Shown here: positions 1 to 38,911 of the stretch, one piece after another | Position numbering within the stretch: position 1 is the first letter of the stretch | How the letters are laid out: each line of letters starts with the position of its first letter | NCBI GenBank assembly: GCA_002104945.1 | Contig: MCFH01000010.1 | Span: 558,001-622,000, forward strand | DNA length: 64,000 bases | DNA from: Piromyces finnis finn | Taxonomy: Eukaryota > Fungi > Neocallimastigomycota | Reading direction: 5' to 3' | Notes under the pieces: model-generated | The model's database searches: none | The model's input: the letters and a program-made list of their open reading frames with translations, nothing else | What the model was told of the DNA's origin: nothing | Position numbers and translations under genes: made by a program

Positions 1-2085
1 AAGCGTTAAAGAGGTTCAAGCGTTTCTTGGGTTAGCTAATTATTATAGAAGATTCATTGCCGGTTTTGCTGAGATCGCACAACCACTGAATGCGTTACTT
101 AAGAAGGATGTTAAATTCTGCTTCTCTCATCAGTGTGAAAATTCTTTTAGTTTAATCAAATCCAAATTTGCTTCTTCCCCTGTTCTTGCATACCCGAATC
201 GTGATATACCTTTCATAGTTGAAACGGATGCAAGTAATTTCGCTATAGGAGCAATCCTTTCACAAACGAATCCAAAAGACAAGTCGGTTCATCCAGTGGC
301 ATTTTTCTCTAGATCGCTTAGTTCTTCTGAAAGGAACTATCCGATCTACGATAAAGAACTTTTAGCAATTGTAGCTGCTTTAGAAACTTGGCGACATCTA
401 CTCAAAGGAACTACTCAGCCTTTCAAGATTTTCTCGGATCATAGAAATTTGCTCTACCAGAAGAAACCCGAAAAAATGACTCAAAGATTAGTTCGTTGGT
501 CTCTGTTCCTTGCCGAGTTTAACTTTATCATCGTTTATCGGTCGGGTTCTGCTAATGGTAAACCTGACGCTTTATCTAGAAGACCAGATTACTTAGAAAA
601 TTTTAAGTATAACAATGACATTCCAAATTCCGTCCTTAGACCCGAAAACTTTTGTGCCATGGTTCTGGATAACAATCCCCTTATGGATAAAATCATTTCA
701 AATAGCAAAGATGATAAATTTTACTTTGAAGTATGCAAATATTTAGAAACTCAAATTCCCCCAGTCCCTCATTCGCAAATCGAAAACTTTAAAATTCAAG
801 ATGGTGTATTATTATTCAATAATAGGATCTATGTCCCCCAAGATTGTCGTTTGGAAGTTCTTAAAATTTGCCATGACTCACCCTCCGCTGGACACTTCGG
901 ATTAAAGAAAACTACTTCCCTTATTGTTCGTGACTTTTGGTGGCCTTATCTCTCAGTCGATGTCAAAGAATATGTTAGGTCTTGCGAAATATGTTGCCGA
1001 TCAAAGGATTCTCGACACAAACCCTATGGATTTCTCTCCCCTTTGGAAATTGCTGAACGTCCTTGGTCTTCCTTATCTATGGACTTTATTACGGATCTCC
1101 CACCTTCCCAAAAGTATACTTGCATTCTTGTAGTCACCGATAGATTAACTAAATTATGCCACTTCATTCCTTTTGAGAACATCCCTTCTGCCTCCGATAC
1201 TGCTGATGCTTTCATGATCAACGTTTTTCGTCTCCATGGATTACCAAATGAAATTCTTTCGGATAGAGGTACTCAATTTACCTCTAAATTCTGGAATTCA
1301 ATTTGCAAATCTTTTGATATAAACCTAAAATTTTCTTCTTCCTACCATCACCAAACTAACGGGCTGACGGAGAGGGTAAACTCCGTTGTAGAACAATACC
1401 TAAGGTGTTACTCAAATTATAAAGGCTCTAACTGGTACAAGTTCTTACATCTTGCTGAATTTAGTTACAATAATGCCGTTCAAGAATCTACCAAAACTTC
1501 ACCATTTTTTGCTAACTATGGCTATAATCCAAAACATTCTCCAATTTTACCAAGTCGTACCGAGATACCAACTGCGGATGAATTCACAAGAAATTTCAAA
1601 GAAATAATTAAAACTCTTAAAGATAACTTGAAGAAATCCATTAATCAACAAGAAAAATTCGCAAACAAACACAGAAGTAAAGCCCCTGAACTCAAGGTAA
1701 ATGATAAAGTATGGATCAACAGTTCTTTAATAATGCGTAATGGTAATAAGAAGTTAAAACCTAGAAAACTTGGTCCGTACAAAATAATTGAAAAAATTTC
1801 TCCAGTTTCTTTCAAATTGGAGTTACCAAAAGAAATTCGCATTCATCCAGTCATCCACGTTTCAGAATTGGAACCCTACCATGAAGACAAGTTCAATAGA
1901 AAGCAACCGCCACCTCCGCCGGTTATTGTGGATAATAAGGAAGAATTTGAAGTCGAAGAGATATTGGATAAAAGAAGATATTATGGTAAAGTCCAATATC
2001 TAATTAAATGGAAAGGATACCCAATATCTGAAGCATCTTGGGAGCCAGAAACAAATTTGAATTGTCCAGAACTACTTAAGGAATT
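1..2085 (+). mobile_element. Element B: 3' part of a Ty3/gypsy chromovirus. It starts left of the window and its 3' end is interrupted by the element A LTR.
   Basis: Pol reading frame from position 2. The sequence switches to the A-family LTR (TGTAACGAATC) at 2086, and no 3' UTR, PPT or LTR of B follows. Confidence 0.9.
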
Positions 2086-2107
2086 TGTAACGAATCATAG
2101 AAATTAG
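2..2107 (+). CDS. pol: Pol of element B (RT connection, RNase H, integrase, chromodomain), 5'-partial. The last six codons (VTNHRN) and the stop are read from the A LTR.
   Basis: Frame is open from base 2 ([18 protein letters not shown]). Motifs: RNase [20 protein letters not shown], integrase HHCC (CHDSPSAGH...CEIC), D-D-E core (SDRGTQF, ERVN), GPY, chromodomain [25 protein letters not shown]. Confidence 0.93.
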
Positions 2108-2494
2108 TAACCTGTCTTAGTGGTTAGTAACTAAGACCTTGGTTTGAACTACTCGAGTTCGAAACCTCATTAATATCTTTTTTTTAATTATTAAAATATT
2201 TTATAACGAAATTTTACCAAAGAAGATAATTTCTGATTGGCTTAAAAAATTAAGTTGTAAAATTTTTATAAATTTACTTTTAAAAACATTTATATAAATA
2301 CGAGTGAAATTTCTCAAAAAATTATTTGGAATTCGAGTTTTTATTAACAAAGAAATTTTATAATAAAAATAAAATTATTAAACACTAACCTGTTATAATT
2401 TTGTTAAGTGTTCAATAATAAAATTTTTATTTGCTTTTATTATTTTCCTTTTTATATATTTGTGTTTTTATTTATTGAACATTAGTTCTTTACA
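2086..2494 (+). repeat. A-family LTR copy 1 (5' LTR), 409 bp
   Basis: Starts TGTAACGAA and ends TTCTTTACA (8/9 inverted termini). Matches 5036-5444 (reverse) and 8219-8559 with no difference seen by eye. Confidence 0.95.
2291..2298 (+). promoter_or_regulatory. Putative TATA box of the A LTR
   Basis: TATATAAA about 40 nt upstream of the inferred transcript 5' end at 2335. Weak on its own in AT-rich DNA. Confidence 0.4.
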
Positions 2495-2504
2495 ATAAAA
2501 ACTC
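2495..2504 (+). promoter_or_regulatory. Self-priming-type primer binding site of element A
   Basis: ATAAAAACTC directly after the LTR is the exact complement of GAGTTTTTAT at 2335-2344 inside the LTR. No TGG tRNA-type PBS is present. Confidence 0.75.
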
Positions 2505-3196
2505 CTAAAATATATAATAACACCTTAGTGTTTAAAAAAGGAAGAATTTTTAATTTATTAAAAAATTAAGTAAGTCAGTGAAGCTTATTTTAACAATAAG
2601 GGTACTGAAAACAAAAGTAAAACCCACAGTTATTATAAGGGGAGCGCCAGGACGCTTAATTTAATAATAAAGAAAAAATTCATTTTCTAATAAAACGTTT
2701 TCTACTTTTAATAAATAAAATTAAATTTTATTTATTATTTTTGAAAAAATATTAAAATAACAAAGAAGTTAGGATTCAATACCTCCCTTAGCGTGGATAG
2801 TTGGACACCTATACGTAATACTTTGTTGTTTAGATATTATTAATAATCGGGGAATTAAACCTATTTTTTTTCTTTCCGCTTAATTAAGTAAGTGACAATA
2901 AAGAAACTAATACCGTTAATTCCTTTTATTGAAAATTTTCATTTCCAATATTAACAATTGATAATATCTACGTTATCAACAAAGAGCTACAAGGGACCTA
3001 GTATTGAATACTAATAAAATTAAATATTTGATGGTCCAATACTATTTAATTTGACTCTTTGTCTATATTTAAAATATTTTAATCAATAAATAATAATAAA
3101 GATTTAATTTTTTTTTTCTTTCTTAATTTCTTCAAACATAACTTTATCTTATTTACATAATTTTTATTTTCAAACAATTATATTTTTTTAATTTTA

Positions 3197-5062
3197 ATGG
3201 AAGGACAAATATTTGATAACGCCTCACTAAAAGACGGTTTCGCAGGAGACAGAAAATATCTCAAAGGTTTCTTAGCCAAAATAGAACTTGTTTTTCTCCT
3301 TTATCCCGAAAGATATCAAGATGAAGAGAGCAAGGTTATCTACCTGATTTCTCGCCTTTATGGAAATGCATTAAATTGGGCCGCTACGCTTATTGACAAC
3401 CATGATCCATGTCTGACCAACTACCAAGCATTCAAGGAAAGACTAAAGGCATTCTACGGGAACAATGATGCAGTCTACGTAGCCAATCAAATGCTACGTA
3501 CTCTCAAGCAACATCGTTTGGGCGGCATCAGAGGATACATCCTTGAATTTAACAAATACTCTGATGAATCTAACTGGAATGAAGAGGCTAAGATGGATGC
3601 TTTTATCGCTGGGCTCAACCAAGAAGTTGCAATGAAGATATTAGAGATGTTCCCAGGACCAAGAGATTTGTTTTCCCTCCAAACTATTGCAGCTAGAATA
3701 GACTCCAGACTTGCTACCAGGGGATTATTTTTTGACAAAAATACTAAGGGACCAAGTTCTAATTCCAGCAATGGCTCCAGAAAGGCTTCCACAAATCTAA
3801 AAGAACATCCCAAGAAGAAAAGATACTTTGGTCCGTTATCCAAGGAAGAAAAAGAAAGAAGAAGTAAGGAAAACTTATGTGTCTATTGTGGATCTCCAAG
3901 ACACCAACTGAAAGATTGTCATAAGAGAAGAAATAAAAACTCAGCATTCGAATCTTTAGTTTCTCTACAAAATAATTCTACCAATTCCAAGAAAAATCAA
4001 CAAGATAGGGTAACCTCAAATTTTAAATTATCGTTTGAACTAGACACAAAAATTCTTATAGACTCCGGTTCTACACTTAATCTAATAGATGTCGACTATT
4101 GCAACGATCACAATATTCCCTACCACTATGAAGAAGATTTACCCAACGTATTCGGTATTGGTGGTAGCCAAAAACTGTTCGGAGTTACTCCACTTCTTAA
4201 TCTTCGCTACATGGATCACCTATGCCGTACTGTCTTTTACGTTACTGATCTACCTGTATATCCTTGTATTCTAGGTCTACGTTGGCTTAAGGAACATAAT
4301 CCAAGTATTGACTTTGAAAATAATAAATTATCCTTTGGTTCTTCATATTGCTTGGATCATTGTATGACTCTCCCTTCGAATGTTCCCGAATTCCATCAGG
4401 AAACTTCTGTTTTTTCTACTGATTGCAATAACTCTTCTTCCGTTTCTTTGCCTATTTTTATTGACAAACCTAAATCTTCTTTTTCAAATTCTAAGTTATC
4501 TCATTCTCGTAATCCCAAAGAAAATCGTTCTAAATCTGTCTTAATTAACAATGAATCTGTTAACGATCCTTTATCACAAGAGACTTGTACTGTCATGGCT
4601 TCTAATATATCTCTTTCTAAAGTTGATTCTTGTTCACCAAAAAACTCTTTTAAAGACTCAAATCCTACTACTAAACTTCCGAAGGAATTAGAATCATATA
4701 TGGACGTCTTTAGCGAATCTTCTGCTGCTCAATTACCACCTCATCGTCCTTATGATTGCCAAATAAACCTAATCGAAAATGCCAAGCTATTTTATGGACC
4801 AATCTACCCACTAACAGACGAAGAAACAAGAGTTTTGAAGGATTATATCGATGAAAACCTCAAAAAGGGTTTCATTAGGAAATCCAAATCTCCTGCTGGT
4901 GCGCCTGTACTTTTCGTTCCTAAAAAGAATGGTGAACTCCGTCTTTGTCAAGATTATAGGGAACTCAACAAAATTACCATTAGAGATTCCTATCCTCTAC
5001 CTCTGATTCAAGATATGCTAGAGCATCTTGGTAAATGTAAAGAACTAATGTTCAATAAATAA
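3197..5062 (+). CDS. gag-pol: Element A Gag-protease-RT N-terminus (native to 5035; last residues CKELMFNK* come from the inverted LTR)
   Basis: CCHC knuckle [14 protein letters not shown], protease ILIDSGS, RT start LPPHRPYDC...[13 protein letters not shown]...[11 protein letters not shown]. It ends at HLGK where the inverted LTR begins. Confidence 0.93.
5031..5035 (+). other. 5-bp target-site duplication GTAAA; partner TTTAC at 8214-8218 in inverted orientation
   Basis: GTAAA abuts the CA end of LTR copy 2 and TTTAC abuts the TG end of LTR copy 3. A 5-bp TSD is typical of Ty3/gypsy integrases. Confidence 0.88.
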
Positions 5063-5444
5063 AAACACAAATATATAAAAAGGAAAATAATAAAAGCAAA
5101 TAAAAATTTTATTATTGAACACTTAACAAAATTATAACAGGTTAGTGTTTAATAATTTTATTTTTATTATAAAATTTCTTTGTTAATAAAAACTCGAATT
5201 CCAAATAATTTTTTGAGAAATTTCACTCGTATTTATATAAATGTTTTTAAAAGTAAATTTATAAAAATTTTACAACTTAATTTTTTAAGCCAATCAGAAA
5301 TTATCTTCTTTGGTAAAATTTCGTTATAAAATATTTTAATAATTAAAAAAAAGATATTAATGAGGTTTCGAACTCGAGTAGTTCAAACCAAGGTCTTAGT
5401 TACTAACCACTAAGACAGGTTACTAATTTCTATGATTCGTTACA
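5036..5444 (-). repeat. A-family LTR copy 2 (original 3' LTR, inverted), 409 bp
   Basis: Reverse complement of 2086-2494, preceded on the minus strand by the PPT. Confidence 0.95.
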
Positions 5445-5447
5445 TGG

Positions 5448-5456
5448 TCCTCCTCC
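5448..5456 (-). promoter_or_regulatory. Polypurine tract of element A
   Basis: Minus strand GGAGGAGGA, 3 nt before the TG of LTR copy 2. Confidence 0.8.
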
Positions 5457-5542
5457 AGGATTCGGATACCAGACGAATCAACTAAATTTATTTGTTACTT
5501 TATTATAAAAGAGATAATTGAAACGAGTGAATACATTTTGAA

Positions 5543-5584
<42 letters not shown>

Positions 5585-5687
5585 TGAATATTAAATTATA
5601 AATATATTTTTTCATTTTCTATTTTCTATTTTCTATTCTCTTTTTCTCTTATCAATTACTAATTTTTTTTTAAATTAATAACTATTA

Positions 5688-8231
5688 CTAATGTGAATTA
5701 TTAAAGTTTTTAATTAGTTCATCGCAGTTTAAATTACTTTCAGGTTCCCAAGATGCTTCTGAAAGCGGATAACCTTTCCATTTTATTAGATATTGAATCT
5801 TCCCATAATGCTTTCTTTTATCAAGTATTTCTTCTACTTCGTATTCTTCTTCTTCATTTACTATTATAGGTGGAGGTGGATCTTTGATTCTTCCAAAACT
5901 ATCTTCATAATACGGTTCTAGGTTTGAAACATGAACAATTGGGTAAATCTTCAGCGATTTTGGTAATTCTAATTTATAAGTGAGATTAGAGATTTTACTA
6001 ATTATCCTAAACGGGCCAAGTTTCCTAGGATTAAATTTTTTATTTCCTTTATGAATTATCAAGGAGCTATCCAACCATACTTTGTCACCAGTCTTGAATG
6101 TCGGAGGTTCTTGTCTATACTTGTCGGCATATTTCTTTTGAACTTGGATGGCCTTCTTTAAGTTTTCTTTTAGTTTCTCCATTAGGTCTTCAAAGTCTCT
6201 TGTAAACTCTTCAGCTCTTGGAACATTCGTTTGGTCAGGAATTACCGGAGAGTATTTTGGGTGATAACCATAATTTAGGAAGAATGGTGAGAATTTTGTT
6301 GAGTCTTGAACAGCATTATTGTAACTGAATTCTGCCAATGGAAGAAAGTTGATCCAGTTTGTTCCTTTATAATTAGAAAAGCATCTTAAATATTGTTCAA
6401 CAACGGAGTTTACCCTCTCCGTTTGGCCATTGGATTGATGATGATATGGTGAAGAATATTTAACATTGACGTCCAAAGATTGACAAATAGATTTCCAAAA
6501 TTTCGAAGTGAATTGCGCGCCTCTATCGGAAATAATTTCAGAGGGGAGACCGTGAATTTTGAAAATATAATTCAAAAAAGCAAAAGCAGTATCAGAAGCA
6601 GAAGGAATACCTTTAAAGGGAATGAGGTGGCACATTTTAGTAAGGCGGTCAACTACAACAAGAATAGTGTTAAATCCATCCGAAGGAGGGAGGTCAGTAA
6701 TGAAATCCATAGAAATAGAAGCCCAAGGATGGTCACTAATCTCAAGGGGTTGAAGTAAACCATATGGTTTATGACGAGAAGGCTTGGAGCGGCAACAAAT
6801 CTCGCAAGATCGGATATAATTCTTAACATCAATAGAAATGGATGGCCACCAAAAGTCACGAGAGATCAAAGAAATAGTTTTGCGGATACCAAAATGACCG
6901 GCAGAGGGGGAATCATGACAGAGTTTCAAAACGGAGGGACGGCATTTTAAAGGGACATAGATTCTACTATCAAAAAGAAGAAAACTATTACTAAGGGAGA
7001 ATTTATTACTTTGTGGATGTGGAGCTGGGAGATTCTTATTTTCAAGAAAATTGCAAATGTCAATGTAAAAAGAGTCGTTCACATATTCAGATAATATTTC
7101 ATCATTAAGAGAAGAAATGGAACAAATCAAAGCGCAGAAATTCTCAGGGCGTAAAACCGAAAAAGGAGCATCAGAAGGAAGAGAGGAATCCATATAATCA
7201 GGTCTTCGTGAAAGCGCATCAGGTTTACCATTAGATGAACCAGAGCGGTAGAGAATTTTAAAGTTAAATTCGGAAAGGAAAAGGGCCCAACGAACAAGAC
7301 GTTGTGACATTTTTTCCGGTTTCTTTTGATATAGTAAGTTTCGATGATCTGAATAAATAGTAAACGGGGTTAAAGCACCTTTGAGAAAATGTCGCCAAGT
7401 TTCAAGAGCATTAACAATAGCTAAAAGTTCTTTATCGTATATAGGATAGTTTCTTTCAGCGGAAGTAAGAGATCTTGAATAGAAAGCGACAGGATGGATC
7501 ATTTTATCATCAGGAGATTTTTGAGACAGAACTGCTCCTATAGCAAAGTTGCTAGAGTCGGTTTCAACAATAAAGGGAAGATCACGATTTGGGTGAGACA
7601 GGATGGGAGCAGATGAAATTAATGATTTAATGGTATTAAATGCATCAAGAGCTTCAGAGGAAAAATCAAATTTAACGTTTTTACGAAGTAGTCTGTGAAG
7701 GGGTTGTGCAACTTTGGCAAAATTAGGAATAAACCGACGATAGTAGTTGGCTAGGCCAATAAAAGATTGAACTTCCTTGACACTGGACGGAACTGGCCAA
7801 TTAATAATAGCAGAAACTTTATTGGGGTCCATATGTATACCTTCAGAGGATATCCGATGACCAAGGAAATCAATAGAGGAAACAAAGAATTCACACTTTT
7901 CAAGCTTAGCATAAAGACCAGCATTTCTTAAGCGATCCAGGACTTCGATAACGTGCTTAATGTGGGATTTATGGTTTTCAGAAAAAATAATTAAATCGTC
8001 AATATATGAATAAACAAAAATCCCTAGAATATTTTCCAGAACATCATTGATAAAATGCTGAAAAACAGCCGGGGCGTTTTTCAGTCCGAATGGCATTACC
8101 AGGTATTCAAAGTGGCCGAATTTGCAGGTGAAAGCTGTTTTATATTCATCACCCTTTTTGATTCGGACCAAATTATATGCTGATCGTAAATCCAATTTTG
8201 AGAAGATTTTCGCTTTACTGTAACGAATCAT
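5688..8231 (-). CDS. pol: Element A RT core-RNase H-integrase-chromodomain half (inverted); ATG supplied by the antisense LTR end
   Basis: [25 protein letters not shown], RNase H ETDSSNFAIG, HHCC, DDE, GPF and chromodomain, with no stops. The first codons ATG ATT CGT TAC are the reverse complement of LTR 8219-8231. Confidence 0.93.
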   Translation of the reverse strand: MIRYSKAKIFSKLDLRSAYNLVRIKKGDEYKTAFTCKFGHFEYLVMPFGLKNAPAVFQHFINDVLENILGIFVYSYIDDLIIFSENHKSHIKHVIEVLDRLRNAGLYAKLEKCEFFVSSIDFLGHRISSEGIHMDPNKVSAIINWPVPSSVKEVQSFIGLANYYRRFIPNFAKVAQPLHRLLRKNVKFDFSSEALDAFNTIKSLISSAPILSHPNRDLPFIVETDSSNFAIGAVLSQKSPDDKMIHPVAFYSRSLTSAERNYPIYDKELLAIVNALETWRHFLKGALTPFTIYSDHRNLLYQKKPEKMSQRLVRWALFLSEFNFKILYRSGSSNGKPDALSRRPDYMDSSLPSDAPFSVLRPENFCALICSISSLNDEILSEYVNDSFYIDICNFLENKNLPAPHPQSNKFSLSNSFLLFDSRIYVPLKCRPSVLKLCHDSPSAGHFGIRKTISLISRDFWWPSISIDVKNYIRSCEICCRSKPSRHKPYGLLQPLEISDHPWASISMDFITDLPPSDGFNTILVVVDRLTKMCHLIPFKGIPSASDTAFAFLNYIFKIHGLPSEIISDRGAQFTSKFWKSICQSLDVNVKYSSPYHHQSNGQTERVNSVVEQYLRCFSNYKGTNWINFLPLAEFSYNNAVQDSTKFSPFFLNYGYHPKYSPVIPDQTNVPRAEEFTRDFEDLMEKLKENLKKAIQVQKKYADKYRQEPPTFKTGDKVWLDSSLIIHKGNKKFNPRKLGPFRIISKISNLTYKLELPKSLKIYPIVHVSNLEPYYEDSFGRIKDPPPPIIVNEEEEYEVEEILDKRKHYGKIQYLIKWKGYPLSEASWEPESNLNCDELIKNFNNSH

Positions 8232-8559
8232 AGAAATTAGTAACCTGTCTTAGTGGTTAGTAACTAAGACCTTGGTTTGAACTACTCGAGTTCGAAACCT
8301 CATTAATATCTTTTTTTTAATTATTAAAATATTTTATAACGAAATTTTACCAAAGAAGATAATTTCTGATTGGCTTAAAAAATTAAGTTGTAAAATTTTT
8401 ATAAATTTACTTTTAAAAACATTTATATAAATACGAGTGAAATTTCTCAAAAAATTATTTGGAATTCGAGTTTTTATTAACAAAGAAATTTTATAATAAA
8501 AATAAAATTATTAAACACTAACCTGTTATAATTTTGTTAAGTGTTCAATAATAAAATTT
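8219..8559 (+). repeat. A-family LTR copy 3, 3'-truncated (341 of 409 bp)
   Basis: Matches 2086 onward up to ...TTCAATAATAAAATTT, then breaks off into C-derived sequence. Confidence 0.93.
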
Positions 8560-8564
8560 GAAGA

Positions 8565-8678
8565 ACGGTTGCCATCAAAACCGTTCTTCAAATCAGCAGA
8601 GTTATCCATAAAAAAAATTAGAAGTAAGCAAATAAACGAGGCACTGAGGTAGCGATCTTTTTCTTAGAGTGTTTTTAT
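8565..8678 (-). pseudogene. Truncated start of a second C unit (PBS, 5' UTR, first ~15 gag codons)
   Basis: Same sequence as 13698-13812 apart from one A-run length; encodes [15 protein letters not shown] and then ends. Confidence 0.88.
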
Positions 8679-9059
8679 TGTAACGAAATATTATAATAAT
8701 AAACACACACACTCTAATGTATCAAATATATGTATTTTTTTTTTAATAATGTTTATTTATTAAATTTATTATTATAATACGACTAACTCGCTAGGTCAGT
8801 GTATTATCAAACTAAAGACGAAACAAAAAAAAAAAACTAATTTTTATTAATTATTAATAAAAACACTAAAGAACTATTTTATCTTTCTTATTCTCTCTTT
8901 TATACATGAAAATTATTTTTTTTTTTTTTTTTTAATACAATTTGATAAGTGAATTAATTACTTAATGATTGGTTATAAAAATATAATTATGAAATTTTCA
9001 TTAATCTAACCTTAATGATTTTCTAGTCTAACCCTTATCATTAGATATACCTCATTACA
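8679..9059 (-). repeat. C-family LTR (3' LTR of unit 1 and 5' LTR of unit 2), 381 bp
   Basis: Minus strand TGTAATGAGG...TTTCGTTACA. Differs from 13813-14200 only in three homopolymer lengths. Confidence 0.95.
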
Positions 9060-9061
9060 AG

Positions 9062-9071
9062 CTCCTCCTCT
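9062..9071 (-). promoter_or_regulatory. Polypurine tract of element C
   Basis: Minus strand AGAGGAGGAG, 2 nt before the LTR TG. Confidence 0.8.
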
Positions 9072-9104
9072 AAATTCGGATTCCAGACGAATTTATAAGC
9101 TAAT

Positions 9105-9144
<40 letters not shown>

Positions 9145-9170
9145 AGGCAGTTGACTTCATATGAGAATTA

Positions 9171-9473
9171 AAAGGTGTGGTACAATGGTCGAGTAGTTGG
9201 CAATGAACTAGAAGGTTGTGGGTTCGAAGTCGGGGTTGGTAGAGTAACTTTGATGTAAGGCGGGTTGGCGCCAAGACTAAAGTATGTCCAACAAGTACTA
9301 GAGGTTTCATAGGCAAGGTTCCAATATGGCCGTTTGATAGTACTTGTTCTTGGTACGCTTGTAAGTCCAGTAAATCCCTATGGGAGCTTCGCCAAAACGG
9401 TATCGGTTAAGTTTATTCTAAAAATTAATATCCCTCATTTGTGTCTAAAAATTAATGAAAATTAGTTAATTTT
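9171..9473 (+). ncRNA. Putative Pol III-type (tRNA-headed) structured RNA, antisense within the 3' UTR of C; family unidentified
   Basis: A box TGGTACAATGG (9178-9188) and B box GGTTCGAAGTC (9221-9231) at tRNA spacing. Perfect 11-bp stem 9290-9300/9338-9348. First T4 at 9470, T60 at 9485. GC-richer than the flanks. Confidence 0.4.
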
Positions 9474-9482
9474 ATTATTATT

Positions 9483-9542
<60 letters not shown>

Positions 9543-9547
<5 letters not shown>

Positions 9548-12500
9548 GGGTCTTGTTGAATTCTCTTAGCTTTGCTGGACAGTTCAGATTTTCTTCGGGT
9601 TCCCATGAGGCTTCTGAAATAGGATATCCTTTCCATTTGATCAAGTACTGAGTTTTGTTATAGCGTCTTCTTTTGTCCAGAATTTCTTCTACTTCGTATT
9701 CCTCCTCTTCGTTTATAATGACAGGTGGTGGAGGTTGAACTTTTCGGTTTGTACTTTTCCCTTCGAAGTAAGGCTCGAGAGATGATTTATGGAATACCGG
9801 ATCAATCTTCATGTTACCAGGGAGTTTCAATTTAAATGAGACTTCTGATATTTGTTGTTCAATTTCATAGGGACCGAGTTTCCGAGGGGTGAATTTTTTA
9901 TTTCCCTTAACTAAATTATTATTGATTAACCATACCTTTTCTCCTGGTTTGAATGACGGGCCTGGTTGTCTATGTCTATTGGCGAAATGTTCTTGTTTCT
10001 TTTGGGCTTCCGAAAGGTTTTTCTTGAGGGTGCTGATAATTTCTTTTAATTCTTTTGTGTATTCTTCAGCTCTTGGAACTTCACTTGTTGTTGGAATTGT
10101 TGGATTAAAATTAGGATGGAAACCATAGTTCAAGAAGAAGGGTGTTTGTTTTGCAGATTCTTGAACTGAATTATTGTAACTAAATTCAGCTAGGCTTAAG
10201 TATTCGATCCAGTTAGTGCCTTTGTAATTTGAGAAGCAGCGTAGATATTGTTCTACAACGGAGTTCACTCTCTCCGTCTGGCCATTGGATTGGTGGTGAT
10301 AAGCAGAAGAGTATTTCAAATCAATCTTGAGGGTAGCAAAGAATTTCTTCCAAAACTTTGAAGTGAACTGAGAACCTTGGTCGAGAACAATGTCGGAGGG
10401 GCATCCATGAAGTTTGAAGACGTTGTTAATGAAAGCTTCGGCAGCACGTTCAGCAGTGGGAACTTTTTCAAGAGGGATAAAGTGAGCCATTTTTGTCAAT
10501 CGATCAATGACAACGAAGATACAGGTAAATCCACGAGAAGAGGGGAGGTCAGTGATAAAATCCATAGCAATGGAAGACCAGGGACGTTCACCTAAAGGAA
10601 GAGTGGATAATAACCCGTAAGGTTTATGTCTAGAGGATTTCGAACGACAGCAGACCTCACAAGAACGGACATAGTCCTTAACATCCTGATACATTTTGGG
10701 CCACCAGTAGTTACGGGAAATCAAGGATAAAGTTTTTGAAATACCAAAATGGCCGGCAGCAGGGGAGTCATGACAAGAAGACAGAATTTCAACTCGGCAA
10801 TCATTAGGAACATAGATTTTATCTTGGAAAAGGAGGACGTTGTTACTAAGTTTGTAGTCAGAAGAACAATTATCATTGAGAAGTTGATTAGAAGTCTCAA
10901 TGAAGAATTTGTCAAGTTTACAAGAGAGAGCAATTTTTTCAAGAAGAGAAGAAGGAGTGGATGAAGCAAAGCAGGAGCTGAAATTTTCGGGACGAAAGAC
11001 AGAGTTATTAGAATCGGAATTGCAAGAGTGATCAAGATAGTCAGGTCTTCTTGACAAGGCATCGGTTTTCCCGTTCGAGGAACCAGGGCGATATTCAATG
11101 ACAAAATCGAATTCAGCAAGGAAAAGGGACCATCTAATTAATCTCTGAGTCATCTTCTCCGGTTTCTTCTGAAAAAGGAGGTTTCTGTGGTCTGATATAA
11201 TTTTGAAAGGATGATTCGCACCTTTCAAAAAATGTCTCCACACTTCTAAGGACGCGACGATAGCCAAAAGTTCTTTATCATAGATAGGGTAGTTCTTCTC
11301 CGGGTTTGTAAGGGATCTAGAAAAGAACGCAACAGGGTGAAGAATATTGTCGGACTTGTTGACTTGAGACAATACAGCACCTATGGCGAAGTTACTTGCA
11401 TCGGTTTCGACAACGAAAGGTAGGTCAACATCAGGATATGCAAGGATAGGCTGACTAATAAAATGCTTAACCAAAGCATCAAAAGCATCTTGAGCGGTAT
11501 CGTTCCAAACGAAGGCGGTGTTCTTCTTGCAAAGTTGGTGGAGTGGGTGAGCAATCTTAGCAAAGCCAGGAATAAATCTACGATAATAGTTGGCTAAGCC
11601 TAGGAAAGATTGTAGTTCATGGACCGATTTAGGAGTCGGCCATTCCGCAATGGCTTTCACCTTATTAGGGTCCATTCCGATACCAGAGGCAGAGATTCTA
11701 TGACCAAGGAAGTCAAGACAAGGAGAGTCGAATAGACATTTTTCAAGTTTAGCGTACAGTCCGGCTTCTTCGAGTCTACGAAGGACTTCATTGACGTGTT
11801 CATGATGTTCGGCTATATTATCAGAAAAAATGATAATATCGTCAATATACGAAAAGACGAATTTACCGATAATGCCTTCAAGAACGTCGTTAATAAAATG
11901 TTGGAAGACTGCAGGAGCGTTCTTGAGACCGAAAGGCATTACCAGATATTCGAAATGGCCAAATTGACAGGTGAAGGCGGTCTTATATTCATCGCCTTCT
12001 TTGATTCTTACCAAGTTATAGGCGGATCGAAGATCTAACTTCGAGAACACCTTAGCTTTTCCTAGATGATCCAACATGTCTTGGATCAATGGGAGAGGGT
12101 ACGAGTTCCTAATGGTGATTTCGTTCAAGCGGCGGTAGTCGATACACATACGAAGTTCTCCACTCTTCTTCGGGACAAACAGAACGGGAGCACCAGCTGG
12201 CGATTTGGATTTGCGGATAAACCCCTTTTTTAAATTTTCATTAATGGTTTCTTCTAATACCTTTGATTCTTTCTCAGTAAGTCGGTAGATTGGACCATAA
12301 AACAAGTTGCTATTTGGTCTCAGGTTGATCTCACAGTCGTACGGGCGATGAGGAGGGAGTTTATCAGCGAGCCTTTCCTCGAACACTTTGGAGTGTTGAG
12401 AGTAGTGAATTGGAATTTGGGGTGACTCAACTTCAGGTTCTTCTAAACAAGTGAATACATTGAAAGGGTATTCAGGTGTATTTCCAACTGACATTTCGTC

Positions 12501-13742
12501 CTTCGATTGGTCTTCGAGTTCAGAAGTGGTAGAGCTAGCAGATTCTTTCCTTAAGCAATTTTCCTTACAGTATTCAGAATGATAGGAAACGTCCTTACTA
12601 GCAAAATTGATTGTCGGATTGTGAAGGGCCAGCCAATCAGAGCCAAGAATACAACAGTAAGAAGGCAATTCTACGACGTAAAATTGTAACTGGCATGAGT
12701 GATTCATGTGTTCCACAGTTATAGGCCAAGTCTGGCCGATAATCTTTTGGTGACCTCCGATACCTATAATTTGTGGGCATTTTACTTTGGTAATTATAGG
12801 GATCTCATGGGCCTTAACAAAGGCGTGGTCTATCAAACAGAATTGTGAACCACTATCTAAGAGAACTTTAGTTCCGACAGATTTGTATGGAAGAACAACA
12901 TCAACATCGATAACAGTTTGAGGTAAAGAGGAGTTATCCGAAAGTCGAGTGGATTTTTCTTGTTCATTCAAAACATGGACCCCAGCATTATTAGTATGGT
13001 TTTCCTTTTTGGTTCTAATAGGGCATTCAGATAATCGGTGACCAGGTTTACCACAATATAAGCAGAGATTCTCTTTCATTCGGCGGCTACGTTCTTCACT
13101 TGAAATGGGGCCAAAATTATTTTCCTTCTTGGGCTGAGTGGATTTACTTGTAGATCTTTCTGAGGAGCGGGATTGGAAGCTTTGTTTAGAACGGAAACTT
13201 CTATTGGATCTTCTGTTTATTTCCTCTTGGTGGCATGCCAATCTACTTCCTATACGACTGGCTATTGTTTGTAAGTTTATCAAGGTAGAAGGGCCAGGAA
13301 ACATCTGAAGGATATGGGTGGCGATTCTATCGTCCAACCCATCAACAAAAGCATCCATCTTGGCTTGTTCATTCCAAGTGGATTCATCAGCATAGTAGTT
13401 AAATTCCTTGATATACTCTTGAGTATTGGATAGGCCACGTTGTTTGATCTTCTTGAGCTTTTGGTTGGCAGTATAGACCATATCCTGAAAACCAAAAGCA
13501 GCCTTCAGCTTTCCAACAAAGGCGCCATAATCCTGTAAGCAAGGATCATGGTTGTTAATCAAGGTAGCAGCCCAATTCATTGCATCCCCGTAGAGGCGAC
13601 TAACGACGTAGAAGACCTTTTCTCCATCGTCCCTTCCTATTTCAGGATGGATCATAAAGATCATGTCCATTTTGGCTAAGAATCCCTTCAGGTAGCGACG
13701 GTTGCCATCAAAACCGTTCTTCAAATCAGCAGAGTTATCCAT
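9543..13742 (-). CDS. gag-pol: Element C Gag-Pol polyprotein (1399 aa, single frame)
   Basis: [18 protein letters not shown], protease LLDSGS, RT YIDD, RNase H, integrase HHCC/DDE/GPY, chromodomain [25 protein letters not shown]; uninterrupted. Confidence 0.96.
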
Positions 13743-13801
13743 AAAAAAAAATTAGAAGTAAGCAAATAAACGAGGCACTGAGGTAGCGATCTTTTTCTTA
13801 G

Positions 13802-13812
13802 AGTGTTTTTAT
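13802..13812 (-). promoter_or_regulatory. Self-priming-type primer binding site of element C
   Basis: Minus strand ATAAAAACACT after the 5' LTR is complementary to AGTGTTTTTAT (14006->13996) inside the LTR. Confidence 0.75.
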
Positions 13813-14200
13813 TGTAACGAAATATTATAATAATAAACACACACACTCTAATGTATCAAATATATGTATTTTTTTTAATAATGTTTATTTATTAAATTTA
13901 TTATTATAATACGACTAACTCGCTAGGTCAGTGTATTATCAAACTAAAGACGAAACAAAAAAAAAAAAAAAAAAACTAATTTTTATTAATTATTAATAAA
14001 AACACTAAAGAACTATTTTATCTTTCTTATTCTCTCTTTTATACATGAAAATTATTTTTTTTTTTTTTTTTTTTAATACAATTTGATAAGTGAATTAATT
14101 ACTTAATGATTGGTTATAAAAATATAATTATGAAATTTTCATTAATCTAACCTTAATGATTTTCTAGTCTAACCCTTATCATTAGATATACCTCATTACA
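13813..14200 (-). repeat. C-family 5' LTR, 388 bp
   Basis: TG...CA termini; direct repeat of 8679-9059. Confidence 0.95.
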
Positions 14201-14241
14201 GTTGGCAGTTTGATTAACGGAAGTTTGCCCTCTTCCATAAC

Positions 14242-15171
14242 CTAGTTTTTTGTATAATATGTAGAGTTCATGTGTGGGCAAAATCTGGCAATATGACCTG
14301 GTTCATGGCAGAAATAACAGGTCTTTATGTGTAAGTTCTGCATTCCGTTAATCAAATCATTCATTTCATCATTTTGATTATTAATGCTAGTAGTTAATCT
14401 TGTATTATTATTAGAATTTGATATATTAGAATATTGTGTACTAGCACCATTATTCATACTATTATAGCTTTTACTATAATTAACATTATTACCATTATTA
14501 TTACTATTATTATTAACATTATTATTTACTTTAATATTATGTGGAGGATTGTAATTATTGTAATTATTCGAATATCTAGGCCTACTATAAGTATAATTCG
14601 AATTATTATAATTGTTATTATTAGTACGACGGTAGTTCATAGACGAAGTACTAGCTCTAAGATTTGGACCATTATGAATTTCATAATATCTTTCAGCAAT
14701 CCCCATAGCATCTTCAATTGATTTTGGATCTGCGAATGCAACCTTTTCATAAACATCATCTTGTGCAACTAGAGCGAATTCATAGTCATACACAGAAATC
14801 TTGTCTTTGAATTCATCTGGCAGATCATCATAAAGCTTCATAAACTTTTTATCAAATTCTAATACATTTTCATTAACTTCAATTTTTAACATTTTTAATT
14901 TCCTAAATTTGGCAGCTTTATCATTGTTTGAATGATATTTCTTCATAAGTATTACTTTACATTCATTAAGAGATAAGTCTCTATTTACTTTTCTCCTATG
15001 TTCCAGAATCGCTTTGGTAGCTTCTTCACGCGTACTAGCCAAAATATAACGGTAGATATCTTCATTAGCTACCTTTTCTATAGCTAACCAATTTTCTAAA
15101 AGATCCACCCAGGTATCTACATCTTGGTTAGTTCCTCCAATTGTTGGAAGTGGAATTTTAAATTCACCCAT
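14242..15171 (-). CDS. gag: Gag of element D (309 aa; capsid-like region, Asn-rich linker, CCHC knuckle)
   Basis: C-terminal CYFCHEPGHIARFC; lies about 0.8 kb downstream of a tRNA PBS; not similar by eye to the A or C Gag. Confidence 0.8.
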   Translation of the reverse strand: MGEFKIPLPTIGGTNQDVDTWVDLLENWLAIEKVANEDIYRYILASTREEATKAILEHRRKVNRDLSLNECKVILMKKYHSNNDKAAKFRKLKMLKIEVNENVLEFDKKFMKLYDDLPDEFKDKISVYDYEFALVAQDDVYEKVAFADPKSIEDAMGIAERYYEIHNGPNLRASTSSMNYRRTNNNNYNNSNYTYSRPRYSNNYNNYNPPHNIKVNNNVNNNSNNNGNNVNYSKSYNSMNNGASTQYSNISNSNNNTRLTTSINNQNDEMNDLINGMQNLHIKTCYFCHEPGHIARFCPHMNSTYYTKN

Positions 15172-15987
15172 TATTGAATTGAAAATAGAATAAATAATTA
15201 ATTGGTAATATTATATGAAATAAAAAAAAAATAAAATAAAAATAAATGTAATTCTTAATTATAAGATTAAAATAATGTAAATAATACAATATTTTAATTC
15301 TCTTTAAATAAAATAAAATAAAATAAAATAATTAAAATAGTTAGAATTAAAATAAGTAAGAAGATACAATATTTTAATTCACTTAGATAATGATAATTAT
15401 AAAATAATTAGAATTAAAATAAGTAAGAGAATACAATATTTTAATTCACTTAAAATAATATGAAAATTTCTTTAAAATAAAACTCACTATAACTAATATA
15501 GTTGGTAGTAAGCTTAATCAGATATTATAAAATAAGTAAAAATATTATAAAATATGTAATAATAATTCTTAAATATAAAATTCTTTATATATAATATAAT
15601 GTTATATAGTAATATAACATAAAACTTTTCAAACTATTGAATAAAAATAAAATAAATAATCTACCAACTAATAAACATATATGAATAAAAGATTAATCGT
15701 TTTTATTCTGGTCCGATTTCCCCAGTTTCTCTTATTCAATTATATAAAAATAATAAAATTGTATTAATAATAATATTCTTGTGGATATTAGAATATAACT
15801 TGACTAAAGTAAATACTCTAAATTTCACAAAATACAAAGGTAAAATAAAGAAAATAAAAATAACAATTAATTCAATTCAATAATATCGCGTTTATTTTCC
15901 ACTTAATAATAAAACACTCAAACTAAATAATTAAATTCACCTATATTATAGATTTAATTAACTAATATTAATATCTTTTATTCTACA

Positions 15988-16005
15988 ACCTCACACTTCG
16001 CACCA
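15988..16005 (-). promoter_or_regulatory. tRNA primer binding site of element D
   Basis: Minus strand TGGTGCGAAGTGTGAGGT, 3 nt after a CA end. Its complement ...CCTCACACTTCGCACCA reads as a tRNA 3' end (last 9 nt as in yeast tRNA-Phe). Confidence 0.78.
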
Positions 16006-37613: not shown

Positions 37614-38911
37614 ATGGCTGCTGTAACAGTACAAAGAAACGAAATAGAAGATTCAAATAAGGATAAGTTAACTACTTATACCTATACCATAACACAATCA
37701 TATTTCATAGATAGTTTATATGGTAAATATTTTAAACAATATTATAAAAAATAATAGTTTTATAAATTTTGTATATTAATATTTATTAATATAAAATATT
37801 ATTATTAGATATTGCATGTACCATATTAAACGAAAGTCCAATATGGAACAAACAATCCAATACCAGTCAAGAGAACCTTTGTTCTTTAAGAAGTTTTATT
37901 GTTAAAATAACTGAATCTTCAAATACAACTATTACTACTTTTCAAGTAGCTTTATATTATTTATTACAATTACATCAAAGGATAGAAAATATTAATGAGA
38001 CTACTAAGAAGCAAAAGTTATATACTGCTTTATGTGGTAGAAGAATGTTTTTAGCTGCTTTAATTATTGCGTCAAAATATGCTACTGATCGTGCTCTTTC
38101 ATCTGGAACATGGGCATCACACATTATTGGTCAAAACAATGGAATTAGAAATGTTAGTGAAGTTAATTCTATTCAACAAGAGTTTTTATCTATAATGGAG
38201 TATGAATTATTTATTGAACATGAAAACTTTAATCATTGGATGGACGAATTAAAAGAATATACTATATTAAAATATAAATATTTAAGTATCAATAACCAAA
38301 AACAAGTTCTTCAATGGAAAGCTCAACAATCTTATTGGTTTAAAAGACTTTCCATTGCTGCTAACATGAAGCGTTCAAAGATGAATATTTCCTCTAATAC
38401 CCAAACTACCTCATCTTCTTACATATTGACATCAACTCCAGTTCAAACTCCAGTTCAAACTCCAAATCAATCAACTAATATTGGAAATCCATTCTTAGTT
38501 TTATGTAACAAAACTACTTCATTACCTTCACCAACTTCCCCAATTTCCAAGAAATATGAAAACAATACTTCTGCTCCAATTAACACCCCATGTTCCCAAA
38601 CCATACCTTCAAAACAAAGTTTACCTGTTCAAATTAATACTAATTATCAAAGATATATACCAAGATATATAGTTAGTAATACCGTTACATTAACTCCATT
38701 ATCTAATATATCTACACCATTTGTTCTAAATAAGCAAAATAATGTTAATGTTTCTCAATATAATACTTATCAAAGAGTCACCAATTGTAATAATAAAAGA
38801 AGTCGTTCTTCTTCTTATGACAATTACCCAACAGAAAAGAAAATAAAATATAATAATCAAGTAATCCCTACTCCACCATCAAACTCTAGAATGTTTATTA
38901 ATATAAACTAA
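37614..38911 (+). CDS. PHO80/PCL-family cyclin, PCL5-like; join(37614..37722,37809..38911), about 403 aa
   Basis: Cyclin box LCGRRMFLAALIIASKYATDR...W; a GT-AG intron keeps the frame; Ser/Thr/Pro/Asn-rich C-terminal tail. Confidence 0.82.

What the first reader, a model, noticed from the sequence alone, without database searches (positions are those of the whole stretch)
2086..8559. Element A has the geometry of an inversion-type auto-integration circle fixed in the chromosome
Seen: LTR> - 5' half - GTAAA - <LTR - reverse(PPT, 3' half) - TTTAC - LTR>. The 5-bp duplication is inverted and touches the CA end of one LTR and the TG end of another. Re-inverting and removing the LTR restores one ~1454-aa ORF (HLGK-AKIFSK). 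All three LTRs look identical. Known: intramolecular integration of retroviral/Ty cDNA into the opposite strand gives inversion circles with these junctions, normally regarded as dead ends. Inference: such a circle recombined through its LTR with a genomic A LTR and became heritable. An alternative needs three steps: antisense insertion of a sister copy, collapse to a solo LTR, then inversion between inverted LTRs.
Basis: partly seen in the sequence, partly recalled or inferred. Interest (0 to 1): 0.85.

Follow-up and report, generated by a model that had tools for sequence, protein, structure and literature searches.

The report
Self-inserted, half-flipped fungal retrotransposon
In a gut fungus, a young jumping gene has half of its body flipped between three matching end-repeats, with a 5-letter duplication at both break points; it was likely hit by an insertion of its own kind and then rearranged, but a later deletion hides whether the attacker was a second copy or the same DNA molecule attacking itself.

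Summary
The structure is in the window: LTR> 5' half GTAAA <LTR <3' half TTTAC LTR>. One correction: LTR3 holds only 341 of 409 bp and ends at a repair scar, so there is no right boundary or outer target duplication. The element is a Ty3 chromovirus; a nearby host gene is 100% identical to a Piromyces finnis protein. All 4 runs laid hold the intact element with a single GTAAA, so the 5-bp duplication is real. The order matches an opened auto-integration inversion circle. But an antisense sister insertion makes the same two junctions, and one inversion across its 3.2-kb inverted repeat gives the identical product. That rival needs two steps, not three, the same number as the circle route. The deletion removed the part that might separate them. 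Odds: nesting plus inversion 0.45, rescued circle 0.40, assembly flip 0.12. The contigs could not phase the junctions, and none shown bridges the two self-insertion junctions. Two unchecked scan notes describe similar copies in other fungi. Five literature searches found no chromosomally fixed inversion circle.

The parts
1..2085 (+). 3' part of a different chromovirus (family C: RNase H, integrase, chromodomain), cut near the end of its ORF by element A; GAATT 2081-2085 is the likely outer target site
   Evidence: 67% protein identity to A; no further C-like 3' end in the window beyond the A and B paralogues
2086..2494 (+). LTR1 of element A, 409 bp, TG...CA
2494..2504 (+). Primer-binding site, 11 nt complementary to LTR1 2335-2345; predicted self-priming as in Tf1 (Tf1 mechanism recalled)
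   Evidence: no tRNA gene in the window
3197..5035 (+). 5' half of the polyprotein gene: Gag, protease motif (LIDSGST, seen by eye), start of RT; 613 codons; the frame runs on into LTR2 to a stop at 5062
5031..5035 (+). Target-site copy 1, GTAAA, at 48% of the intact-equivalent length of 6128 bp
5036..5444 (-). LTR2, inverted, identical to LTR1; its CA end faces the target site
5445..5459 (-). Polypurine tract in its native place before LTR2
5688..8213 (-). 3' half of the polyprotein gene: rest of RT, RNase H, integrase, SH3, chromodomain; 841 codons plus stop
8214..8218 (-). Target-site copy 2 (GTAAA on the minus strand), abutting the TG end of LTR3
8219..8559 (+). LTR3, first 341 of 409 nt, 100% identical
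8556..8593 (.). Deletion scar: 15-bp perfect inverted repeat (8556-8570 / 8579-8593) made of 4 nt shared with the LTR, a 5-nt templated insertion (8560-8564) and a native 6-bp repeat; snap-back end-joining signature
   Evidence: z -6.9; the junction is in an independent contig of run X1
8565..8678 (-). Start of a second tandem unit of family B (primer site, leader, first 15 Gag codons), cut by the scar
8679..9059 (-). Family B LTR shared between two tandem units (PPT before it, primer site after it)
9543..14200 (-). Full first unit of family B (open polyprotein frame of about 1400 aa, 5' LTR 13813-14200), inserted just past the Gag ORF of a fourth element (14242-15210)
   Evidence: 64% protein identity to A

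Best explanation
A copy of this Ty3 chromovirus carries a 5-bp duplication and inverted end-repeats in the middle of its own gene; most likely a second, near-identical copy integrated into it in the opposite direction and recombination across the resulting long inverted repeat then flipped the 3' half. Shown: the two precise LTR-end junctions, the 5-bp duplication, the intact family elsewhere in the organism, the truncated third LTR and its scar. Inferred, step 1: integrase put a sister cDNA antisense into GTAAA of a copy already sitting in element C, giving L A t <L <B <A <L t B L (A = 5' half, B = 3' half, t = target). Inferred, step 2: a crossover or template switch within the 3.2-kb inverted repeat (3' half plus LTR) gave L A t <L <B t' L A t B L. 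Inferred, step 3: a double-strand break repaired by snap-back end joining deleted everything after base 341 of the third LTR and fused it to a neighbouring tandem of family B. Steps 2 and 3 could be one complex repair. The remnant is split inside RT and would be dead as an autonomous element.
For: The route gives the window's order in 2 of 6 single inversions. Retroelements here land in other retroelements: A sits in the ORF of C, and B sits just past the Gag ORF of a fourth element. In 1 of 15 related loci (L004) an antisense LTR only 70.6% identical to the host's own LTR abuts Gag residue about 95 with the downstream frame still open, which points to an insertion by a second molecule. The family is young and has other copies: intact contigs in 4 of 4 runs, with other flanks at the LTR CA end in X6 and X7. 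The scar shows that a break was repaired here (model in passages of PMC5728401).
Against: Nothing observed separates this from the circle route; the products are identical in the enumeration. The route needs a hit in a same-family copy, which is a small target, whereas auto-integration is self-specific by nature. All three LTRs are identical, and both halves match the X1/X6 contigs at all but one base (3899), as one donor molecule would give. The un-inverted intermediate was not seen. L004 is a cousin insertion in another organism's short contig, and its far flank carries no matching duplication.
Confidence: 0.45

Rival explanations
1. Rescued auto-integration product. One cDNA attacked itself in the opposite-strand mode and made the circle L A t <L <B t'. 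The circle then entered the chromosome by homology at the LTR or 5' half of the A copy, or at a solo LTR, inside element C. The later deletion trimmed the right end.
For: Order and both junctions match in 3 of 8 crossovers. Inversion circles are common products: abundant for SISYPHUS (passages of PMC7197481), and auto-integrants were about 20% of MoMLV circles (passages of PMC3148978). Tf1-type elements enter pre-existing copies by homology: about 4% of wild-type Tf1 insertions (PMC11042837) and about 70% of Tf2 mobilisation (as cited in PMC8805722). The neighbouring family B is a tandem sharing an LTR, the product of such entry or of unequal exchange. LTRs are identical and the halves share one haplotype.
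Against: The Tf1 pathway uses single-stranded ends of linear cDNA, which a closed circle lacks. No outer duplication flanks the structure. No central PPT-like tract lies near the site: best matches 7 of 11 and 8 of 13 bases, whereas yeast auto-integration clusters near one; SISYPHUS sites are dispersed, so this point is weak. No precedent for a fixed circle turned up in searches.
Confidence: 0.4
2. Assembly flip or collapse. The genome holds an ordinary antisense nest or antisense solo LTR (L A t <L t B L), and the assembler turned the 3' half round between the inverted LTRs.
For: The only contig that carries the scar (X1 record 3, 396 nt, depth 8.4) runs scar - LTR - 20 nt of the PPT side, which is the adjacency of the un-flipped form. 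No joint for target-LTR3 was listed in 4 of 4 runs. A plain nest has the same junctions.
Against: Short-word contigs cannot phase a 341-bp repeat, and PPT-LTR words come from any intact copy; weak side branches are pruned in such graphs (recalled behaviour). The host gene's protein record lists a contig of 1.2 Mb, and the two B LTRs differ only in homopolymer lengths. Both suggest a long-read assembly, in which unique anchors 0.3-3.2 kb apart are normally spanned. The sequencing method was not established.
Confidence: 0.12

Closest known systems
Auto-integration inversion circles (MoMLV, HIV-1, Ty1, Arabidopsis SISYPHUS; passages of PMC7197481, PMC4751563, PMC3148978)
   Same: Precise LTR ends joined to both sides of one internal site, an inverted segment between the LTRs, native primer-site and PPT junctions kept.
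   Different: Those are extrachromosomal, have two LTRs and are described as suicide or dead-end products. This one lies in a chromosomal contig with a third, truncated LTR, and a single-molecule origin is not shown.
Nested LTR-retrotransposon insertions and complex or tandem LTR structures (passages of PMC11899658)
   Same: Element-in-element clusters, shared internal LTRs (family B here), later recombination and truncation.
   Different: The passages seen describe head-to-tail tandems and nests; here donor and target are the same family with identical LTRs and the internal half is inverted.
Integrase-independent, Rad52-dependent entry of Tf1/Tf2 cDNA at pre-existing copies (passages of PMC11042837, PMC8805722)
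   Same: Related element group (Tf2-like SH3 domain, predicted self-priming); homology-driven entry gives tandems like family B.
   Different: The substrate there is linear cDNA and the products are direct tandems, with no internal target duplication or inversion.
Ty3 chromoviruses of anaerobic gut fungi (P0001, P0002, Orpinomyces P0025)
   Same: Single Gag-Pol frame of about 1400-1450 aa ending in a chromodomain; 70-78% identity over the 3' half.
   Different: No protein above 78% identity was found; family A itself is known here only from the window and the contigs.

Membership tests
Inversion-type auto-integration product | LTR CA end and LTR TG end joined precisely to the two sides of one internal site | tested here: met
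Inversion-type auto-integration product | Short target duplication at both junctions, single in the intact element | tested here: met
   GTAAA twice in the window, once in intact contigs of 4 of 4 runs
Inversion-type auto-integration product | Segment between the LTRs inverted, with no loss of element sequence | tested here: met
   halves in frame, 1454 codons; orientation rests on the assembly alone
Inversion-type auto-integration product | Donor ends and target on the same DNA molecule | not testable with these tools
   a two-molecule route gives the same junctions and product
Inversion-type auto-integration product | Signature of re-entry (complete third LTR followed by the outer duplication or by an intact copy) | tested here: inconclusive
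   LTR3 is cut at 341 nt by a deletion scar
Inversion-type auto-integration product | Circular extrachromosomal form exists for this family | not testable with these tools
   no circle-enriched data; runs are contigs only
Antisense self-nest with later inversion | Same-family LTR ends on both sides of a duplicated internal site | tested here: met
Antisense self-nest with later inversion | Second set of internal sequence, or an un-inverted allele | tested here: inconclusive
   absent from the window, but that part would lie in the deleted stretch; no genome held
Ty3 chromovirus, Tf1-like | Gag - protease - RT - RNase H - integrase - chromodomain order between TG...CA LTRs | tested here: met
   Pfam Ty3_capsid, RVT_1, RT_RNaseH, rve, SH3_Tf2-1, Chromo; the protease of A had no Pfam hit and rests on a DSG motif seen by eye
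Ty3 chromovirus, Tf1-like | Primer site complementary to the element's own LTR (self-priming; feature recalled) | tested here: met
   11-nt match for A, 12-nt match for B; sequence match only, priming not tested
Snap-back SD-MMEJ junction (scar at 8560) | Inverted primer repeat, templated insertion and microhomology forming a longer new inverted repeat | tested here: met
   definition from passages of PMC5728401

The most novel reading that the evidence does not exclude
This is a retrotransposon suicide circle that came back: an inversion-type auto-integrant re-entered the chromosome by homology and became heritable. With the shared-LTR tandem next door, it would show that Tf1-like elements in gut fungi feed even their failed products back into TE clusters without integrase. 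Three-LTR elements with an inverted internal target duplication would then be a searchable fossil record of auto-integration in nature.
Probability: 0.4. Interest if true: 0.6.

Novelty: new variant of a known kind. Interest (0 to 1): 0.35.

Why it matters
Auto-integration circles are treated as dead ends. A fixed one would show a route back into the genome and give a signature (three LTRs, middle one inverted, 5-bp duplication on opposite strands) that can be counted across long-read assemblies. This single copy cannot prove it, because nesting plus one inversion yields the same sequence. The useful result is the test: the ratio of inverted to un-inverted antisense self-nests across genomes separates the two routes. 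If the nest route holds, the locus is an ordinary but very clean record of how young TE clusters rearrange and decay.

Tried and rejected
No whole genome is held, so other copies of family A could not be aligned or searched for the same structure. An exact 22-nt LTR pattern had 0 hits in metagenome contigs. The protein scan of viral contigs gave 0 relatives among 7 candidates. None of 15 related metagenome loci showed a same-family three-LTR inversion; they are 1.5-6.8 kb long, so this is weak. The two junction-specific ORFs and the B ORF are not in the protein collection by exact look-up (3 of 3 absent), which is uninformative because the open B frame is absent too. No RNA holder is on record; X1, X6, X7 and X8 are only guessed to be RNA, so nothing is claimed about expression. 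Holes in contig cover over the LTR are not used as evidence. The C-LTR1 junction remains untested by reads. No central PPT was found. Rfam gave 0 matches in 1-16000 and ARAGORN 0 genes. Rejected: chance match of the 5-mers; a three-step minimum for the rival route; LTR3 as a complete LTR. Garfinkel 2006 (PMC1676259) is not held and is known only as cited by others. Searches on gut-fungal retrotransposons gave nothing on this family.
Full report
OBSERVATION. Self-comparison of the window shows LTR1 at 2086-2494 (409 bp, TG...CA), an exact inverted copy at 5036-5444, and a direct copy at 8219-8559 that is exact but only 341 nt long. GTAAA (5031-5035) touches the CA end of LTR2, and its reverse complement TTTAC (8214-8218) touches the TG end of LTR3. 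The primer-site junction after LTR1 and the PPT junction before LTR2 are native. The plus-strand half ends [10 protein letters not shown] and the minus-strand half continues AKIFSKLDL; lengths add to 1454 codons. The contiguous RT stretch was matched in 24 of the top 31 protein hits (3 matched another stretch, 4 none) and in 9 of 15 loci. Two random 5-mers of the element are equal with P about 0.002.

WHAT THE ELEMENT IS. Pfam gives Ty3 capsid and Gag in the 5' half, and RT, RNase H, integrase, Tf2-like SH3 and chromodomain in the 3' half. An 11-nt primer site is complementary to LTR positions 250-260, as in self-priming Tf1-type elements (recalled). The best protein relatives are 76-78% identical, and one at 70% is from Orpinomyces. 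A host ORF at 37790-38908 is 100% identical to a Piromyces finnis protein, whose record lists a contig of 1.2 Mb; GC outside the elements is mostly 11-23%. The host is therefore an anaerobic gut fungus.

SURROUNDINGS. Element A interrupts the last codons of family C after GAATT. To the right, family B (minus strand) runs LTR - full frame - PPT - LTR - primer site - first Gag codons, which is a tandem sharing an LTR. Its second unit is fused to LTR3 at 8559/8560. That junction has 4 nt shared with the LTR, a 5-nt insertion copied from the nearby strand and a 15-bp perfect inverted repeat, where the native B sequence has only 6 bp. This fits snap-back synthesis-dependent end joining (passages of PMC5728401). 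The deletion removed the rest of LTR3, whatever followed it, the rest of C and the rest of the second B unit.

READ EVIDENCE. Eight runs hold the stretch, all as contigs; four were laid on 2495-8218. In 4 of 4 a contig joins 5030/5035 to 8218/8213 on opposite strands with 5 shared letters: the intact family exists with one GTAAA. The X1 and X6 contigs differ from the window at one base (3899, G in all four runs; the window reads Arg in the zinc knuckle). X4 and X7 carry further variants. X6 and X7 show other flanks at the LTR CA end, so other copies exist. One X1 contig (396 nt, depth 8.4) carries the scar, which confirms it independently. The same contig runs through the LTR into 20 nt of the PPT side. 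That is the adjacency of an un-flipped element and counts against the window's order, but such contigs cannot phase a 341-bp repeat and any intact copy supplies the PPT-LTR words. No piece shown bridges 5035/5036 and no target-LTR3 joint was listed; 513 pieces and 20 loose ends were not shown. The C-LTR1 junction was not tested by reads.

MECHANISM. A symbolic enumeration (L = LTR, A and B = halves, t = target) shows that the inversion circle L A t <L <B t' and an antisense nest L A t <L <B t' <A <L t B L have the same two non-native junctions. The window's order arises in 3 of 8 circle crossovers (5' LTR or 5' half of a full copy; solo LTR), in 2 of 6 single inversions of the nest, and in one pop-out-plus-inversion path. 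Circle entry into a full copy and nest inversion give the identical string. For nesting: both outer junctions visible here are insertions in or beside other elements' genes, and locus L004 has an antisense LTR 70.6% identical to the host's own, abutting Gag. For the circle: auto-integration is self-specific and frequent (passages of PMC7197481; PMC3148978), Tf1/Tf2 cDNA enters resident copies by homology (passages of PMC11042837; PMC8805722), and family B is a shared-LTR tandem. Against the circle: that pathway uses linear ends, no central PPT lies near the site, and no outer duplication survives. Rough rate arguments from my own knowledge put the two routes within an order of magnitude of each other. 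I give nesting plus inversion 0.45, the circle 0.40, an assembly flip 0.12. The preference is slight.

KNOWN AND NEW. Inversion circles are defined in passages of PMC4751563 and PMC7197481. Tandem and nested structures are treated in passages of PMC11899658. All seven papers were seen as keyword passages only, none in full, and no supplements were read. Garfinkel 2006 was not available. Searches (listings and abstract starts) showed no chromosomally fixed inversion circle; the library lacks most subscription papers, so absence from print is not established. Two earlier AI notes of this scan describe similar rearranged copies in other fungi; I could not check them. Look-ups by place and by sequence found nothing.

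VERDICT. A real and unusually clean self-insertion record in a young chromovirus, with an undecidable history at this one locus. New variant of a known kind; interest 0.35, rising to about 0.6 if circle re-entry were shown.

Noticed in passing
window 8565-14200 (-): Family B is a tandem sharing an LTR: PPT before and primer site plus Gag start after the LTR at 8679-9059. Its first unit has an open frame of about 1400 aa. The two B LTRs differ only in homopolymer lengths.
   Followed up: partly
window 8556-8593: Deletion junction with a 5-nt templated insertion that extends a native 6-bp inverted repeat to 15 bp; a snap-back end-joining signature in an early-diverging fungus; present in an independent contig (X1).
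   Followed up: yes
window 8231-5688 (-): An ATG inside the antisense strand of LTR3 is in frame with the 3' half (MIRYS-KAKIFSK...). A transcript from the B LTR could in principle encode a protein with a truncated RT and whole RNase H, integrase and chromodomain. Expression was not tested.
   Followed up: no
window 9140-9420: GC-richer island in the 3' UTR of B between two long T runs, with an A-box-like match at 9178. The B-box pattern did not match; Rfam and ARAGORN found nothing.
   Followed up: partly
window 3899: Private base in this copy (A; G in all four runs laid) that turns a zinc-knuckle Gly codon into Arg; the only difference from the X1 and X6 contigs.
   Followed up: partly
L004 57-568: Antisense LTR, 70.6% identical to the element's own 3' LTR, abutting Gag residue about 95 with the downstream frame open for 1341 codons; no matching duplication at its far end.
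   Followed up: partly
window 2149-2165: Two B-box-like motifs in opposite orientation near the start of the A LTR; meaning unknown.
   Followed up: no
window 14242-15210 (-): Gag-like ORF (Ty3 capsid hit, zinc knuckle) of a fourth element; B is inserted about 40 bp past its stop.
   Followed up: no
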